Assembly: GCA_963514005.1 (NCBI GenBank)
Contig: OY740790.1
Span: 19,716,001-19,780,000, forward strand
Direction: 5' to 3'
Length of the DNA: 64,000 nt
From: Raja brachyura
Taxonomy: Eukaryota
Shown here: piece by piece, positions 9,001 to 61,000 of the stretch
How positions within the stretch are numbered: position 1 is the stretch's first letter
How the letters are laid out: every line of letters starts with the position of its first letter
Made by a program: the position numbers

Positions 9001-12000
9001 ACTTTTGCAAACTTATTATGACAAATATCTCTATCAAGTTCTTTGTATTCCATGAGGACAGCACTTGGTTCCTCTTCTCATCTGCAAGAAGAGTCTGTAG
9101 AAGCTGAGTGAAACAATCCCTTGGTAGACCTGTTTCTCTTCATCCTACTGTTCCTACTATCCTATAGGATCAATCTTATGGATCTTGGGTTCCGGGTCTT
9201 CTTCCCCCTCTTCCTCTGGCACTTGTTCTTGTCATCATTTTGCTTGATTGCTCACCAAATATAATGTTTTCATAGAGACCCTGGGGGGAGGAATTGTTAC
9301 CAATTGGATAAAGGTGCTACATTAGAACTTTACATTAGAGGGGAAATGGTTGGGAAACGAGGGGAGGGAATGGATGGGACAGTGGCCAGTCAGTGAGAGG
9401 TGCACCAAAGAAATATGAAAGGTTACCCTGCTTGCTTGCTTGGTTTGTACTATCTCTCCAGAATGGTGCAAGGCAACTGAACCTCATCTTTGGAGTCACT
9501 CAAATCTGAAGATGTTGGAATCTTGAGTAAAAGTCAAACTGCCAGAGGAGCTCAGCAGGCTCAGTGAAATGGAATAATGATGTTTCGGGTCAGGACCCTT
9601 CTTGAGATTGATGTTTACTAATATCATTTTCATGATTGCTTTGAAGCTCTCCGTCGCTGTCTTTACTATTTGATGATCCATGTATCTGTATTCAGTTGGT
9701 ATCGCTGGAGAGCACATTGGGATGTTGAGCCTAGGAGGCAGAGAGTGCTCTTGCCCCTTGGGATCCAGGGCAGATACTGAGAATGCCTAGCATTGTATAT
9801 GGGATCCACTGTTGGAAAATGTTTGTAATAGAGTCGTAGAGTGATACTGTGTGGAAACAAGTCCTTCAGCCTAATTTGCCCATATCGGCCAACATGTCCC
9901 AGCTACACTATTCCCACCTGCCTGTGTTTACTCCATAACCCTCCAAACCTGTCCTATCCATAATGATCAACACTAATCTGGAAATTGAAGGAACAGAGGC
10001 CATTCCTTTCCATAAAATGCCCAGGATATTAAGGAGATCACTTAAAATACCTGAGTGCTGTCAGTGGCTATCTGCATTCATGGTGATTAAGTGTTGATCC
10101 AATGCCATAAGGTGAAATGCTGATCCTGTTCCCAGTGGGTAGCATTTTACCTAAAAATTGTCACTTTCATGTGTAGAAAGGGACTGCAGATGCTGGTTTA
10201 AACTGAAGATGGACACAAAAAGCTGGAGTAACTCAGTGGGTCAGACAGCATCACTGGACAAAAGGAATAGGTGACAGTTCGTGTCTGTAGAAGGGTCTCG
10301 ACCCGAAACGTCACCTCTTCCTTTTCTCCAGAGATGCTGTCTGACCCGCCGAGTTGTTCCAGCTTGTTTTGTCTATCTTCATGATCACTTTCATGCTATA
10401 TTCAGGGCAATAATGTGTTTTGCTGTTATTAACCACCCACAAAATGGATGCTAATTGATCCAATTGGTAGACTAAGAATCCAGAAGTTGCTGTCAATGAT
10501 AATTGCTCTTTCACCAGCTTCTCTGTTTAGTCTTTACATAAGTAAATCAACATTGAACCCATGATCTGATGTGAACTTTATTTTTCTAATAGTACCCCTA
10601 ATGTAAATCCACGGAAGACATTAAAATGCGGTTCATCTGAACCTTTGACAGTGTGCTGGATATAATTGCCACGTGACCGCAGCTCTGGCACTAACATTAG
10701 AACTACCTTCTCTATCCCATGTTTAAAAAATATAAAAATACATGTTTAACCTCCTGCTTTGCTTTCTGTGAGAATTATTCAACCTGTTTAGCTACTTAGA
10801 CTCCTGATAAGATGTCCAAAGAAAGGTCCACGAAACAACACCCATCCCTTTCCTCCAGTGATGCTGCCCGACCCGTAGGTAGACAAAAGTGCTGGAGAAA
10901 CTCAGCGGGTGCAGCAGCATCTATGGAGCGAAGGAAATAGGCAATGTTTCGGGCCGAAACCCCCCCCCCCCCCAGCACTTTGTGTCTAGACTGATGAAAA
11001 ACACTGATTCTGAATGCATCAGGTTTTCTATATATAGCTATTCAAGTTGGTAAATTGGGAACCCTTGTGATAACGCCTACTTGATCATGTGAGGTCAGTA
11101 GTATATACACCAGTCTTTTGTTGCTGACTTTAAATTGTGTGATAATGGTATTTATATCGGTGTACTAAACCGGCATCGAAAATGTGCTAGGCGTATAGAA
11201 CGAAGCCTCCGTGATGTAGCACCTTATTATGATGTTCCAACGTGCCATGTAATGAGAAGCGTGACGTGTGATCTCGTTTGTAATATGCATCAAGCAATAT
11301 ACCACAAAAAGCTAAGGAGAGATGACATGATAATTTGCTTATGTGGGTTAGAAGGGGTGTGCGTGGGCCGGTTGCATCCTGATGGGCTCGGGTCTGCTAC
11401 ACGACAACGTGGCGTTGACCAACGGGAAATTCTTCCACTGATCCACATTGAGGAAATGGGCTTCTTGAAAGTCCCAAAGAACCTATAAAATCCAAATTAA
11501 TTACCAAATCAAATTAATTACCCAAAGAGGCAAATAATTTTAACCAGCCATTCAGTAAGTTTAGCCCTGCTGATATATCCAAGTAGATGTAACGTTGAAC
11601 AGAGGTGTGAGTGTCCGTCCTCTATCCAGAGGCGGGAATAACATTAACTAAACACAAACCTTTCATTAAAGTATTTAACTCATCGCTCAAAAAGTACGTT
11701 GGTCACACTTATTTTATATGGACAATCTTTTCTAAATATTGACACAGAGGAAGGTATTAAACATTTACTTTAAGTGACTTTAAGGTAAATGCCGGATCAA
11801 CGCGTAACACAGACCACCTGCAGTTTTACAACAGCGAGAACACACAGTGGTTTTGCAATGACAAGGGTGTTATATTTGGCTGAATTCAAGGTGGCGGAAA
11901 AATTCTCGAAGGTAAAAAAAAATGCTGCACAATTGCACGGCTCAAACCGCTATTTAATTTGAGTGTTCCAGAAAATAGTTGGAATGTAGACAAAAATGCT

Positions 12001-58000: not shown

Positions 58001-61000
58001 ATCACCCTGTCTCTAAAGAGCAAAAATCAAGTGCTCCCACTCTTCACTGTTGTCGACCGATTCTTGCTGACTGCCTGCTGGATAGCTAGTCCACCAGCAC
58101 TCATTGTTAAGTCAAGATTGATGGCCTGGATGAAATTCCAGATGGCAGGCAGCTGCTGCAAATCTCAAATGCGGGTGCCGGCAGGAAAGGAGGGGAAAAA
58201 TAGGTGGGAGAATAACCTTGAAAGAGCAAGTATAAATTCAACCAGTTTTTTTTTGCGACCTGCTTATAACTTAATGTTAAAATAATTATTTTCTCTAAGA
58301 GTTAGTGCTACAAAGAATTCACAAATTGACTCTCCACTAGTAAGATTTAAAAATGCAGCAGTAATTGACACAAAAATGCTCTACGAATCATTACAACTCA
58401 ACAATTCTGACAGCTTTGGGTGGATTGGATACGTAGATTTAGGTTTGCAACGTGTAATTATTTTTACTTAATCATACATTTCAGTTTTAGCCAACTATCT
58501 AAACACATTCAAGCAATGTGTGAACTAAATTACTAAGGGTCATATTCTTAACCAACATCTTGTTGGTTAAGAATACAGGTACAGCAGGCAGTGAAGAAAG
58601 CGAATGGCATGTTGGCCTTTATAACAAGAGTCGTCAAGTATAGGAGCAAATGGCTCCATCAGCAGTGGTACAGAGCCCTAGTGAGACCACACCTGGAGTA
58701 TTGTGTGCAGTTTTAGTCCCCTAATTTGAGGAAGGACATTCTTGCTATTGAGGGAGTGCAGCGTAGGTTTACAAGGTTAATTCCCGGGATGGCGGGAGAT
58801 TGAAGCAGCTGGGCTTGTACACTGTGGAGTTTAGAAGGATGAGAGGGGATCTCATTGAAACATATAAGATAGTTATGTGTTTGCACACGCCGGAGGCAGG
58901 AAACATGTTCCCGATGTTGGGGGAGTCCAGAACCAGGGGCCACAGTTTAAGAATAAGGGGTAAGACATTTAGAACAGAGACGAGGAAACACTTTTCCTCA
59001 CAGAGATTTGTGAGTGTGTGGAATTCTCTGCCTCGGAGGGCGGTGGAGGCAGGTTCCCTGGATGCTTTCAAGAGAGAGCTGGATAGGGCTCTTAAAGATA
59101 GCAGAGACAGGGGATATGGGGAAAAGGCAGGAATGGGGTACTGATTGGGGATGATCAGCCATGATCGCATTGAATGGCGGTGCTTGCTCGAAGGGCTGAA
59201 TGGCCTACTCCTGCACCTATTGTCTTGCTTAGAAGTTAGAGACATGGATGATGTACAGTAATTTGATTGGGATTTCTGCATCTTTTTAACGTGGGCTATT
59301 TAATGCAATCAGTCTTTTTCGTAATTCTCCTCATGCTGTTGTCGGCACCTGCTAAGCACTTTACTCCAGGAAGAAGGAACAGTAATTGGCCTTTTAATTA
59401 AACTCTTGCTCTGGAAGGATGTTGGGATGGACTGTTTTGTCCAACTTTGGTCCGTACTCTTTGGCCAACCAAACAATCAATAATTTGAGAACTGCGTGTA
59501 GAAGCAGGTTTTTCAAACCTTTGTGTGGGAAGGAACAGCAGATGCTGGTTTACACCAGCGATAGACACAAAGTGCTGGAGTGACAGAGGATCAGGCAGCA
59601 TATTTGGAGAACATGGCGACAGGCGATTTTGTGGGTCGAGACCCTTCAGTCTGAAACGTCACCTGTCTATGTTGGCCAGAAATGCTGTCTGAGTTACTCC
59701 AGCACTGTGTTCTTTTAAGAAAAATCAGACAGACTCAACTCTTTGTCATAACATATAAATGCATTAATTCTGGCTGTTTACCTTGAATTGCATTTTCAAT
59801 ATTTTCTGGGAGTTATTTACATCCCTCTTCCATTTCACCAAAGAACACCTGTCTTGAGTGTTCATTGTGATACTGCCATCTTTATAGATATTGTACTGTG
59901 CTGGGACTTTATTGATGACCCCCATCCATAAAATCATTCAAGTTACCTTTGTGAGGTAGCATTGTTATTGTTATTCTACCTGCCATTTATTACGTTTTTT
60001 AAAAAAAAATCGCATTTAAATAATGTTGAAAGTTTTTGGATTCCATTCGGCAATTGTCCCACTTGTATAACTAAAATCAAGAAATTTGTATGTGAAAACA
60101 CACAGGAAAAGCCCTGGATCACATCTTTCTACCTTAACTCATTCCCAAGGATGAATTCACAACTGAGTAATGGACCAATGGCCACACTCAAATTTGAGGG
60201 TTGCTGGCATTTGTGAAACTGCACCCTTTTATGATTCTGTGGAAGAGAGATGCGTTAGAATTGCATAACACATTGATAATCTCATGCAAAATGTAAGTGG
60301 CACAAACTAATGCAACATTTTCTTTACACTTTTGCAATTTATAGATAAATTGTTCCTTGGCATTCTTCCTGTTTTCATTCCACGTTCATGAAAAGTCTAT
60401 ACTTCTGGCAGCAATGTAAGTTTTGGAAATCTGTAATTTTAATTTCCTCTGAGATAAACTGATAAACCACACGATGAATATTTTGCTTGATTTGTTTACA
60501 CCCTAGCGGTATGATCATTGACTTCTCCAATTTCAGGTAGTCCGTGTAGTCAGCTTTCTCCCTCCTTCCCCTCCCCTTCCCAGCTCCTCCACAGCCTACT
60601 GTCTCCGCCTCTTCCTCTCTTCTTCCCGCCCCCCCCCACCCCCACATCAGTCTGAAGAAGGGTCTCAACCCGAAACGTCACCTATTTCTTCCTCCATAGA
60701 TGCTGCCTCACCCGCTGAGTTTCTCCAGCATTTTTGTCACCCACACGATGAGTGGTCCTCTGCCTCATTAAGTGGGTGATGAATGATTTCATCCATTCCC
60801 TCCGTTTCCTGGGTTCACTGGAGTGAGAAACCTTTTCTTTAAATAACCTTCCTTTTGTCAAGCATGGTCTATTTAACATTGGATTGGCTATTTCACATCA
60901 GACTATTGAAAACATGGATGTGGGATTGAATCTGTGACCTTGCTCTGCATTGTCCTATTATCTCTTCAGACATTTTCAGTACTTTTGATCTTGATGCAGT

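What the first reader, a model, noticed from the sequence alone, without database searches (positions are those of the whole stretch)
9500..60740. A dense family of short, often palindromic non-coding elements built from Penelope termini around the hammerhead motif
Seen: at least a dozen 100-240 bp copies (about 9500, 10171, 10830, 11985, 12990, 27040, 27560, 27795, 32743, 34322, 37197, 56347, 57732, 59521) share the terminal sequence of the GIY-YIG elements. Many are head-to-head inverted duplications whose junction falls at or inside the hammerhead core. Inference: either a non-autonomous retrozyme/MITE-like family, or the recurrent product of Penelope integration creating an inverted terminal repeat. 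The junctions differ from copy to copy, which favours independent formation with breakpoints concentrated at the ribozyme. That would be a clue to how the RNA template end is defined.
[Added by the scan's program, not by the reader: the finding's places include an assembly gap (unread letters, written N; its length is only estimated) at 19329 to 19457. Whether the letters on both sides are continuous or in frame is not known: test that first.]
Basis: partly seen in the sequence, partly recalled or inferred. Interest (0 to 1): 0.65.

Follow-up and report, generated by a model that had tools for sequence, protein, structure and literature searches.

The report
Truncated, often back-to-back Penelope retrotransposon ends
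The short, often palindromic repeats are the cut-down tail ends of a shark or ray Penelope-type jumping gene, often inserted as two copies joined head to head, which is a known habit of these elements and not a new kind of element.

Summary
The repeat family is real. nhmmer finds 21 arms at 14 loci (E 1e-8 to 1e-131). Three arms continue upstream into GIY-YIG ORF remnants, and the closest proteins are elasmobranch RT plus GIY-YIG proteins. The shared roughly 130-nt module begins with a motif that fits the published Penelope "min-hammerhead". No Rfam hammerhead model detects it.

Six loci are head-to-head inverted pairs. All 18 truncated arms start within about 50 nt spanning the ribozyme. Ten start at or just 5' of the CUGANGA box, seven inside the core, and at most one near the cleavage site. 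Four of the six pairs are flanked as a whole by 11-15-bp target-site duplications. In all six pairs, exactly one arm carries the roughly 35-nt 3' "tail".

These are described hallmarks of Penelope-like elements: an inverted 5'-truncated pLTR, a tail at one end, a TSD, and palindromes at the junction (PMC3846280, PMC8557442). So the copies are ordinary solo and inverted pLTR insertions, not a MITE, a SINE or a tandem retrozyme.

The modest new point is that the inner ends do not sit at the hammerhead cleavage site. Two pairs cannot be snap-back copies, which favours priming on both DNA strands.

The parts
2001..3043 (-). It holds a GIY-YIG remnant with a C-x4-C-x2-C linker, a 3'UTR and the terminal module 2001-2110. 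The hammerhead core is deleted and the 3' end is the long type.
9506..9610 (-). Single arm of a divergent subfamily. Its 5' end lies at about ref 225-230.
   Evidence: (E 4e-15).
10172..10384 (.). Pair P1. The left arm (-) runs 10172-10285, with inner end at ref 249-253 and the long tail. The right arm (+) runs 10283-10384, with inner end at ref 232 and the short end. The arms overlap by 3 nt (GTC/GAC). The 11-bp TSD lies at 10161-10171 and 10385-10395.
10803..10995 (.). Nested insertion. The outer + arm is 10803-10875 plus 10974-10995, with 5' end at about ref 224. The inner - arm is 10880-10962, with 5' end at ref 242 and the short 3' end. Eleven extra C follow the inner arm (C run 10960-10973).
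11989..12015 (-). 27-nt fragment of the module (ref 296-323).
   Evidence: E 0.0013.
27567..27694 (-). Single arm 27a. Its 5' end lies at ref 229-233 and it has the long 3' end.
   Evidence: (E 3e-30).
27779..27891 (-). Single arm 27b. Its 5' end lies at ref 235, possibly 216. A segment of about 22 bp is inverted in place at 27793-27822.
32737..32947 (.). Pair P2. The left arm (-) has the long tail and inner end at ref 240. The right arm (+) is short, with inner end at ref 241-243. The TSD (10 of 11 matches) lies at 32726-32736 and 32948-32958. The arms are 87.8% complementary over 164 nt.
34323..34514 (.). Pair P3. The left arm (-) is short, with inner end at ref 249. The right arm (+) has the long tail, with inner end at ref 259-265. 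The TSD (13 of 14 matches) lies at 34309-34322 and 34515-34528.
37178..37287 (-). Single arm with 5' end at ref 233, possibly about 220.
   Evidence: (E 2e-16).
48531..49230 (+). ORF-linked reference copy. It holds the GIY-YIG C-terminal remnant 48531-48863, a 3'UTR, the hammerhead motif 49097-49124 (cleavage would fall between 49124 and 49125) and the long 3' end.
56347..56596 (.). Pair P4. Both arms reach ref 230 and share the 7-nt palindrome CAGTCTG at 56462-56468. Two extra partial 16-nt units (ref 231-246) lie at 56469-56493. The left arm is long and the right arm short. No clear TSD.
57729..57938 (.). Pair P5. The left arm (-) is short, with inner end at ref 249. The right arm (+) has the long tail, with inner end at ref 233. 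The junction type is the same as in P1, but the tail is on the other arm. The TSD (14 of 15 matches) lies at 57714-57728 and 57939-57953.
59520..59711 (.). Pair P6. The left arm (-) has the long tail, with inner end at ref 230. The right arm (+) is short and starts either at ref 254 or at 230 with helix II deleted. The junction again holds CAGTCTG. No clear TSD.
60478..60740 (+). ORF-linked simple 5'-truncated insertion. It holds the ORF end 60478-60577, an intact hammerhead motif at 60652-60679 and the short 3' end. The 11-bp exact TSD lies at 60467-60477 and 60741-60751.

Best explanation
The copies are dead-on-arrival insertions of canonical endonuclease-bearing Penelope-like elements (PLEs) of a cartilaginous fish. 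The linker suggests the Neptune type. Each copy is the last roughly 100-135 nt of the element, that is, the pLTR module. This module holds a minimal hammerhead followed by about 70 nt (short end) or about 105 nt (long end, with the 'tail') down to the site where reverse transcription starts. A copy is present either alone or as two arms joined head to head.

Shown here: a pair is made in one integration event, because one target-site duplication flanks both arms.

Inferred from the published biochemistry of an Anolis PLE: the element's protein cuts both DNA strands and primes reverse transcription on both. Two cDNAs then grow towards each other.

Inferred, with confidence of about 0.4: most cDNAs run to a template end that lies a few nucleotides 5' of the CUGANGA box (ref 230-233), and some stop in helix II (ref 249-254). 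Their 3' ends then pair through the short self-complementary stretches found there (CAGTCTG; GTC with GAC; the helix II hairpin). Each is filled in on the other, so the junction lands in or at the ribozyme. The template is uncleaved RNA, because the hammerhead cleavage site itself is not used as an end.
For: Identity of the element.
- Three of 21 arms continue into GIY-YIG ORF remnants.
- ORF 2537-3043(-) is 63% identical (2e-56) to a whale-shark protein, P0001. P0001 carries a partial RVT_1 match (22.7 bits, below its 29.6-bit cut-off) and GIY-YIG above its cut-off.
- All 11 hits named with a species are sharks or rays.
- A C-x4-C-x2-C motif lies upstream of the GIY-YIG core (translation). 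That linker marks the Neptune and Nematis clades (PMC8557442, passages).

Hammerhead. The motif has CUGAAGA, one extra A before helix II, a G10.1-C11.1 pair in 10 of 13 aligned copies, and helix II paired in 92% of cells. GAAA is followed by the palindromic C-G and then U and C. These are the four features Cervera and De la Pena list for metazoan PLE min-hammerheads (PMC4209133, main text read).

One event per pair. TSDs of 11, 11, 14 and 15 bp (at most one mismatch) flank 4 of 6 pairs and one simple copy. Random control: 1.9% reach 11 bp.

PLE hallmarks met. The copies are 5'-truncated, an inverted copy is joined at the 5' end, and the tail is on exactly one arm in 6 of 6 pairs. By my arithmetic, two independent choices would give this with probability at most (1/2)^6 = 0.016. 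The junctions carry palindromes or microhomology. All of this matches PMC3846280 and PMC8557442 (passages).

Both-strand priming.
- In P1 and P3 each arm holds sequence that the other lacks: inner ribozyme bases in one, the tail in the other. Neither arm can therefore be a fold-back copy of its partner.
- Frangieh et al. showed that the Anolis PLE protein cleaves and extends both strands. They also showed that it starts reverse transcription at two internal sites 85-92 nt downstream of the hammerhead cut, and that it does not need ribozyme cleavage (PMC11167929, main text read).

Where the arms end. Of 18 truncated arms, 10 end at ref <=235, 3 at 240-243, 4 at 249-254 and 1 at 259-265. The cleavage site is 261|262. 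P4 carries two extra partial units of ref 231-246 at its junction, as expected from template jumping at an RNA end.
Against: - No full-length element or 5' pLTR lies in the window, so the claimed template end at ref 230-233 cannot be compared with a real transcript start.
- For the five single arms that end at ref 235 or further upstream, truncation is only apparent. Their upstream sequences match nothing, but the upstream regions of two ORF-linked subfamilies do not match each other either. Unseen family-specific 3'UTR therefore cannot be excluded. Three singles may reach ref 216-224.
- Arms of a pair are only slightly more alike than arms of different pairs (0.759 against 0.717; 109 of 20000 permutations reach the observed value). 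The partner is the best match for only 2 of 12 arms.
- P4 and P6 show no clear TSD.
- Independent priming of the two strands does not explain the rule of one long and one short arm.
- Four pairs (P2, P4, P5, P6) fit a snap-back origin equally well.
- Rfam does not recognise the hammerhead. The minimum-free-energy folds do not give the hammerhead shape. Helix I has only 2 base pairs, and the aligned copies show no covariation.
- The sample is a single 64-kb window.
Confidence: 0.75

Rival explanations
1. A self-propagating non-autonomous family. In this reading the roughly 130-nt module, or the palindrome as a unit, is itself transcribed and copied in trans by the PLE protein. It would be a dispersed, monomeric relative of the animal non-LTR retrozymes, or a SINE-like partner.
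For: Short arms outnumber ORF-linked ones 18 to 3. All three ORF-linked copies belong to one subfamily, while most short copies belong to another that has no ORF-linked member in the window. The 5' end is fairly well defined. Vertebrate retrozymes are reported to derive from PLE pLTRs and often occur as monomers (bioRxiv 10.64898/2026.07.22.740005; abstract, section 14 and passages read). pLTRs are reported to hold internal promoters (PMC2377424, passages).
Against: None of the 14 loci is a head-to-tail tandem. Junctions and the tail-bearing side differ between pairs. The module is simply the end of the autonomous element, with no extra head. One window cannot show whether the second subfamily has autonomous members elsewhere.
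Confidence: 0.2
2. Snap-back self-priming. One cDNA folds back on a terminal palindrome and copies itself, giving the inverted arm. This is the model of Arkhipova et al. 2013.
For: Palindromic or microhomology junctions occur in all six pairs. In P2, P4, P5 and P6 one arm is contained within the other. The authors inferred self-priming from the same kind of junctions in rotifer PLEs (PMC3846280, passages).
Against: In P1 and P3 each arm has bases that its partner lacks, so neither arm can be a copy of the other. A fold-back copy should run back to the start of its template. Instead, in 6 of 6 pairs one arm stops about 35 nt short of the other.
Confidence: 0.15
3. Hammerhead self-cleavage makes the 5' end of the RNA template, so cDNAs run off at the cleavage site.
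For: All inner ends lie within about 35 nt of the site. The right arm of P3 may begin at ref 259-265.
Against: At most 1 of 18 arms begins near ref 262. Ten arms contain the whole core and seven contain part of it, all lying upstream of the cut. In vitro, ribozyme mutants insert normally and no RNA-seq reads end at the cut (PMC11167929, main text read).
Confidence: 0.05
4. A MITE-like DNA transposon or a tRNA-derived SINE that is unrelated to the Penelope ends.
For: The copies are short and non-coding, some are hairpin-shaped, and some have flanking duplications.
Against: The same module ends three GIY-YIG ORF remnants. TSD lengths vary from 11 to 15 bp. The two outer ends differ by the roughly 35-nt tail. 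The whole element, not just its tips, is inverted. ARAGORN finds no tRNA in the window.
Confidence: 0.02

Closest known systems
Canonical insertion architecture of endonuclease-bearing Penelope-like elements (Arkhipova et al. 2013, PMC3846280; Craig et al. 2021, PMC8557442)
   Same: Strong 5' truncation. An inverted 5'-truncated pLTR is joined at the 5' end. One TSD surrounds the whole insert. A 30-40-bp tail sits on only one of the inverted ends. Palindromes or overlap occur at the inverted junction. A hammerhead lies in the pLTR.
   Different: Here the insert is reduced to the two pLTRs with no ORF between them, or to one pLTR alone. The host is an elasmobranch. The inner ends were mapped base by base against the ribozyme, which the passages I read do not report.
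Minimal hammerhead (min-HHR) of metazoan PLEs (Cervera and De la Pena 2014, PMC4209133)
   Same: CUGANGA and GAAA boxes, no helix III, palindromic positions 15.2-16.2, an unpaired base between A9 and 10.1, a G10.1-C11.1 pair and a short helix I. That paper also reports single motifs and 'dual min-HHRs 100-700 bp apart on opposite strands'.
   Different: In the six pairs here the two motifs are 0-40 nt apart or overlap. Activity is untested.
Poseidon element of Anolis carolinensis, studied in vitro (Frangieh et al. 2024, PMC11167929)
   Same: Reverse transcription starts at two internal sites roughly 70-110 nt downstream of the hammerhead, and the tail lies between them. Both DNA strands are cut and extended. 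Uncleaved RNA is the substrate.
   Different: It belongs to a different clade (Poseidon, whereas this element looks Neptune-like). There the hammerhead overlaps the ORF start, which is not seen here. Head-to-head products were not described in the text I read.
Animal non-LTR retrozymes (PMC7229834, listing and abstract only; bioRxiv 10.64898/2026.07.22.740005)
   Same: Short non-coding elements that carry a type I hammerhead and derive from PLE pLTRs.
   Different: Retrozymes are head-to-tail tandem arrays that give circular RNAs. No tandem is present here.
Twin priming of human L1
   Same: Two cDNAs primed from the two ends of one staggered break are joined at microhomology, giving an inverted structure within one TSD.
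   Different: L1 twin priming inverts part of one copy and is an occasional accident. In PLEs the inverted copy is the usual outcome and both arms end at the same module.

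Membership tests
Penelope-like element, endonuclease-bearing (Neptune type) | [quoted passage not shown] | tested here: met
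   The window holds only C-terminal remnants. ORF 2537-3043(-) hits Pfam GIY-YIG at 19 bits, below the cut-off. Its 63%-identical homologue P0001 has GIY-YIG above the cut-off (23.2 bits against 22.6) and a partial RVT_1 match below its cut-off (22.7 bits against 29.6). No RT domain lies in the window itself.
Penelope-like element, endonuclease-bearing (Neptune type) | A CX2-5CxxC linker upstream of GIY-YIG (marks Neptune and Nematis, not Penelope/Poseidon) | tested here: met
   C-x4-C-x2-C was read in the frame-2 translation of 2150-3150(-). The criterion comes from PMC8557442 (passages). No phylogeny was made.
Penelope-like element, endonuclease-bearing (Neptune type) | Insertion signature: 5' truncation, inverted 5'-truncated copy, TSD, 30-40-bp tail at one end | tested here: met
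   18 of 21 arms are truncated at the module. Six loci are inverted pairs. TSDs flank 4 of 6 pairs and 1 simple copy. The tail is on one arm in 6 of 6 pairs.
Hammerhead ribozyme (Rfam hammerhead models) | A match to a curated covariance model | tested here: not met
   No hammerhead hit at gathering score, at E<=10 on 64 kb, or at E<=10 on 181 nt. My reading, not tested, is that a motif lacking helix III would score poorly against models that require it.
Hammerhead ribozyme (published PLE min-HHR descriptor) | CUGANGA, helix II with G10.1-C11.1, GAAA, palindromic 15.2-16.2, H17, and an extra base after A9 | tested here: met
   Three copies match the core pattern exactly, against 0.07 expected. 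In 13 aligned copies helix II is paired in 92% of cells and G10.1-C11.1 is present in 10 of 13. The feature list comes from PMC4209133.
Hammerhead ribozyme (published PLE min-HHR descriptor) | Covariation supporting the helices, and self-cleavage (as a dimer) | tested here: inconclusive
   There is no excess covariation over shuffles. Helix I has only 2 bp and is paired in 68% of cells. The cofold minimum-free-energy structure is not the hammerhead dimer. Cleavage needs a bench assay.
Non-LTR retrozyme | Head-to-tail tandem units, each with a hammerhead, giving circular RNA | tested here: not met
   None of the 14 loci is tandem. Arms 27a and 27b have the same orientation but are separated by 84 nt of unrelated sequence. 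Circular RNA cannot be tested here.
MITE (DNA transposon derivative) | Terminal inverted repeats, equal ends and a TSD of fixed length | tested here: not met
   TSDs are 11, 11, 14 and 15 bp. One outer end is about 35 nt longer than the other in 6 of 6 pairs.
tRNA-derived SINE | A tRNA-related head | tested here: not met
   ARAGORN finds 0 tRNA genes in the window. The arms have no shared sequence 5' of the module.

The most novel reading that the evidence does not exclude
The roughly 130-nt module is a complete run-off product. In this reading the PLE transcript starts a few bases 5' of the hammerhead, at a CAGTC-type sequence. That sequence resembles an initiator by my recollection of the YYANWYY and TCAGTY consensus, which I did not test. 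Reverse transcription that starts at the RT site nearest the RNA 5' end then runs off the end of the transcript. A dimeric ribonucleoprotein primes both DNA strands at once, and the two cDNA ends pair through the self-complementary bases at the ribozyme's edge. This would explain why PLEs so regularly carry an inverted pLTR and why pLTRs have a fixed 5' end. It would also make the ribozyme region the physical meeting point of the two cDNAs rather than an RNA-processing site.
Probability: 0.3. Interest if true: 0.55.

Novelty: new member of a known kind. Interest (0 to 1): 0.3.

Why it matters
As annotation, this is routine. These copies are truncated Penelope ends and should be masked as PLE, not curated as a new MITE, SINE or retrozyme family.

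The small added value is mechanistic. How PLEs form their inverted and direct pseudo-LTRs is still described as unresolved in the papers read here. Three observations bear on it:
- The junctions avoid the hammerhead cleavage site.
- Two pairs have arms that cannot be copies of each other.
- In every pair one arm is long and the other short.

These observations favour priming on both DNA strands from uncleaved RNA over self-priming and over ribozyme-defined ends. A genome-wide version of the same mapping would be cheap and would test this properly.

Tried and rejected
- Rfam at three settings found no hammerhead. The weak microRNA-like hits at 32800-32921, 10240-10343, 34357-34441 and 57768-57860 only reflect the hairpin shape of the pairs.
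- The repeat finder extends without gaps. It found only one of the six palindromes, because the arms differ by indels.
- RNAfold and cofold of the ribozyme region and of the whole unit did not return the hammerhead fold. This is not informative for a motif said to need a dimer and protein.
- Covariation counting on 13 copies showed no signal above shuffles.
- I compared the 150 nt upstream of single arms with each other and with ORF-linked 3'UTRs and found no similarity. The positive control between two ORF-linked subfamilies also failed, so this test cannot prove truncation.
- Within-pair versus between-pair identity gave only a weak signal.
- Pfam scans of all 339 stop-to-stop ORFs of at least 55 aa found no RT domain and only one GIY-YIG hit, below the cut-off.
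- Lunse et al. 2017 and Pyatkov et al. 2004 are not held, so their content is not used.
I could not collect copies beyond this window or compare with Dfam or Repbase.
- Supplementary files of the papers were not seen. The min-HHR alignments in the supplements of PMC4209133 might already include this family.
- I searched for prior reports. None of the listed papers maps PLE junctions against the ribozyme, but most of the older PLE literature is not in the library.

Full report
Setting. The window is 64 kb at 40% G+C, with one N run at 19329-19457. It carries a Forkhead ORF at 19505-20647 (Pfam 5e-38) and two ALG6/ALG8-family exons at 42364-42600 and 44434-44733. It is therefore a vertebrate gene neighbourhood. 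The gap lies 60 nt upstream of the Forkhead ATG, and no family copy lies within 6 kb of it. It has no bearing on the finding, and I neither filled it nor tested continuity across it. The best protein relatives of the transposon ORF are all from sharks and rays, so I did not take the contig for human.

The repeat is real. Self-blastn shows a family with up to 17-fold depth. Three rounds of nhmmer seeded with 48864-49230 give 21 arms at 14 loci, with E from 1e-8 to 7.9e-131. Two fragments score E 0.0013 and 0.0049, and three hits have E above 1. A weak hit at 12993-13064 appears only in round two (E 0.25). One is a 27-nt fragment, one is weak, and 27040 is a hammerhead-like core of another family that the model does not find.

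Link to GIY-YIG elements. Pfam scans of all 339 stop-to-stop ORFs of at least 55 aa gave one GIY-YIG hit, at 2537-3043(-), E 0.0018 and below the cut-off. They gave no RT domain. Translating that region and searching the window with tblastn found a second C-terminal remnant at 48531-48863 (53% identity, 2e-27). It also found the ORF end at 60478-60577 and a more distant remnant at 7685-7825. In the first three cases the repeat module lies just downstream of the ORF, on the same strand. ORF 2537-3043(-) is 63% identical (2e-56) to a whale-shark protein. That protein scores above the Pfam cut-off for GIY-YIG and has a partial, sub-cut-off RVT_1 match. A C-x4-C-x2-C motif precedes the GIY-YIG core. 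According to Craig et al. this linker marks the Neptune and Nematis clades (PMC8557442, passages).

The module. I use 48864-49230 as the reference, with position 1 at 48864.
- CTGAAGA lies at 234-240.
- One extra A follows.
- Helix II spans 242-253.
- GAAAC lies at 254-258 and GTC at 259-261.
- Cleavage would fall between 261 and 262.
- The short 3' end lies near 329-335, and the long end about 35 nt further on.

The core pattern occurs exactly three times against 0.07 expected. The GAAAC-GTC motif occurs 12 times against 1.8 expected. No Rfam hammerhead model matches at any setting. The motif does have the four traits that Cervera and De la Pena list for metazoan PLE min-hammerheads: an extra base between A9 and 10.1, a G10.1-C11.1 pair, palindromic 15.2-16.2 and no helix III (PMC4209133, main text read). 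Helix II is paired in 92% of cells across 13 copies, but there is no covariation above shuffles, and helix I has only 2 bp. Activity is unknown.

Anatomy of the copies. Three arms run on into ORF remnants, and eighteen are truncated.

The six head-to-head pairs and their inner ends in reference coordinates:
- P1 (10172-10384): 249-253 and 232.
- P2 (32737-32947): 240 and 241-243.
- P3 (34323-34514): 249 and 259-265.
- P4 (56347-56596): 230 and 230.
- P5 (57729-57938): 249 and 233.
- P6 (59520-59711): 230, and either 254 or 230 with helix II deleted.

The six other truncated arms begin at about 225-230, 229-233, 235 (perhaps 216), 233 (perhaps 220), about 224, and 242. The arm that begins at 242 is nested inside another copy and is preceded by 11 extra G in the sense orientation.

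In total, 10 of 18 arms end at or 5' of position 235, 3 at 240-243, 4 at 249-254 and 1 at 259-265. Two further small fragments begin near 296 and near 277. There are four junction types:
- P4 and P6 share the 7-nt palindrome CAGTCTG.
- P1 and P5 overlap by GTC/GAC.
- P2 joins at the start of helix II.
- P3 joins helix II to the region of the cleavage triplet.

P4 also carries two extra partial units of ref 231-246.

Each pair was made in one event. Direct repeats of 11 (exact), 11 (one mismatch), 14 (one mismatch) and 15 (one mismatch) bp flank P1, P2, P3 and P5 as whole units. An 11-bp exact repeat flanks the simple copy at 60478-60740. Of 1500 random pseudo-elements, 1.9% reach 11 bp. Of 5000, 1.1% reach 9 exact bp. 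P4 and P6 show none.

Tail. In all six pairs one arm has the long 3' end and the other the short one. The long end is on the left in P1, P2, P4 and P6 and on the right in P3 and P5. By my arithmetic, two independent choices would give this with probability at most 0.016.

Comparison with what is known.
- Arkhipova et al. describe the typical Penelope insert as two direct pLTRs plus an adjacent inverted pLTR. The insert lies within a 9-bp TSD and has a 31-bp tail on one of the inverted pLTRs. The inverted and direct pLTRs overlap, and palindromes occur at the junction (PMC3846280, passages).
- Craig et al. and Goubert et al. repeat this description as general PLE features (PMC8557442 and PMC8969392, passages).
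- Cervera and De la Pena noted single min-hammerheads and pairs on opposite strands 100-700 bp apart, and attributed them to truncated PLEs.

The window's copies are the same structure reduced to one or two pLTRs. They are not tandem (0 of 14 loci), so they are not retrozymes in the published sense. Variable TSDs and unequal ends rule out a MITE. No tRNA is present.

Mechanism. Frangieh et al. showed that an Anolis PLE protein cuts and extends both DNA strands. They also showed that it starts reverse transcription at two internal sites 85-92 nt downstream of the hammerhead cut, with the tail lying between those sites. The protein uses uncleaved RNA (PMC11167929, main text read).

The window's copies fit that picture. 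In P1 and P3 each arm holds bases that its partner lacks, so neither can be a fold-back copy. This argues for two separately primed cDNAs in those two pairs. The other four pairs fit either model.

The inner ends avoid the cleavage site, so self-cleaved RNA was not the usual template. The main cluster lies on the far, 5' side of the ribozyme. A polymerase stalled by structure would be expected to stop on the near side. I therefore read positions 230-233 as the end of the template. That end could be a transcript start or another fixed RNA end. I read 249-254 as pausing within helix II. The junction sequences are the self-complementary stretches available at those ends. This step is inference, and I put it at about 0.4.

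Weak points.
- There is no full-length copy in the window.
- The single arms cannot be proved truncated, because the control comparison also failed.
- Partner arms are only slightly more alike than non-partners (0.759 against 0.717; 109 of 20000 permutations).
- The long/short rule is unexplained.
- Everything rests on one window, because no eukaryotic genome collection was available.

Verdict. The structure is a known signature of Penelope-like elements, so this is a new member of a known kind. It carries a small, testable hint about how the inverted pLTR is made.

Noticed in passing
19505-20647 (+); 42364-42600 and 44434-44733 (+): A Forkhead-domain ORF (Pfam 5e-38) lies next to exons of an ALG6/ALG8-family glycosyltransferase (3e-18 and 6e-13). 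From memory this resembles the vertebrate FOXD3-ALG6 neighbourhood. No orthology test was run.
   Followed up: no
10803-10995: One module copy is inserted inside another in the opposite orientation. The host copy lost about 12 nt at the site instead of gaining a TSD. The inserted arm's 5' end, inside helix II, is followed by 11 extra C (C run 10960-10973).
   Followed up: partly
27793-27822: Inside the minus-strand arm 27779-27891, a segment of about 22 bp near the short RT-start site is inverted in place. nhmmer hits it on the plus strand (E 0.0049).
   Followed up: partly
56462-56509: About three tandem copies of a 16-nt piece of the ribozyme's 5' half (ref 231-246) lie at the junction of pair P4. 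The pattern looks like repeated template jumping.
   Followed up: partly
27038-27068 (-): A separate hammerhead-like core with a CTGATG box and a different helix II is followed by sequence unrelated to the family. It probably comes from another PLE family. By eye only, the adjacent plus-strand sequence 27090-27300 reads like a LINE reverse-transcriptase fragment. Pfam gave no hit there.
   Followed up: no
7685-7825 (+): This is a more distant GIY-YIG C-terminal remnant (42% identity, 2.6e-6). Its downstream sequence does not align with the module, so it is a second PLE family in the window.
   Followed up: partly
2390-2545 and 2110-2130 (-): The ORF-linked copy at 2001-3043 has an AT-rich block of about 155 nt interrupting the GIY-YIG ORF. 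It also lacks the hammerhead core between the 3'UTR and the GAAAC region.
   Followed up: partly
49093-49226 (+) and 27561-27694 (-): In minimum-free-energy folds of the unit RNA, the 5' ribozyme box (GAAGAAGG) pairs with the extreme 3' tail (CCTTCTT). An 8-9-bp stem (AGATGCTG with CAGCATCT) encloses the short RT-start site. Whether this relates to the stem-loop start site reported for the Anolis element is unknown.
   Followed up: no
15741-15918; 50258-50348: The first region is a long hairpin with G-run and C-run arms that gives weak microRNA-model hits. The second is a TG/TA microsatellite that gives mir-297-like hits below gathering score. Both look like low-complexity artefacts.
   Followed up: no
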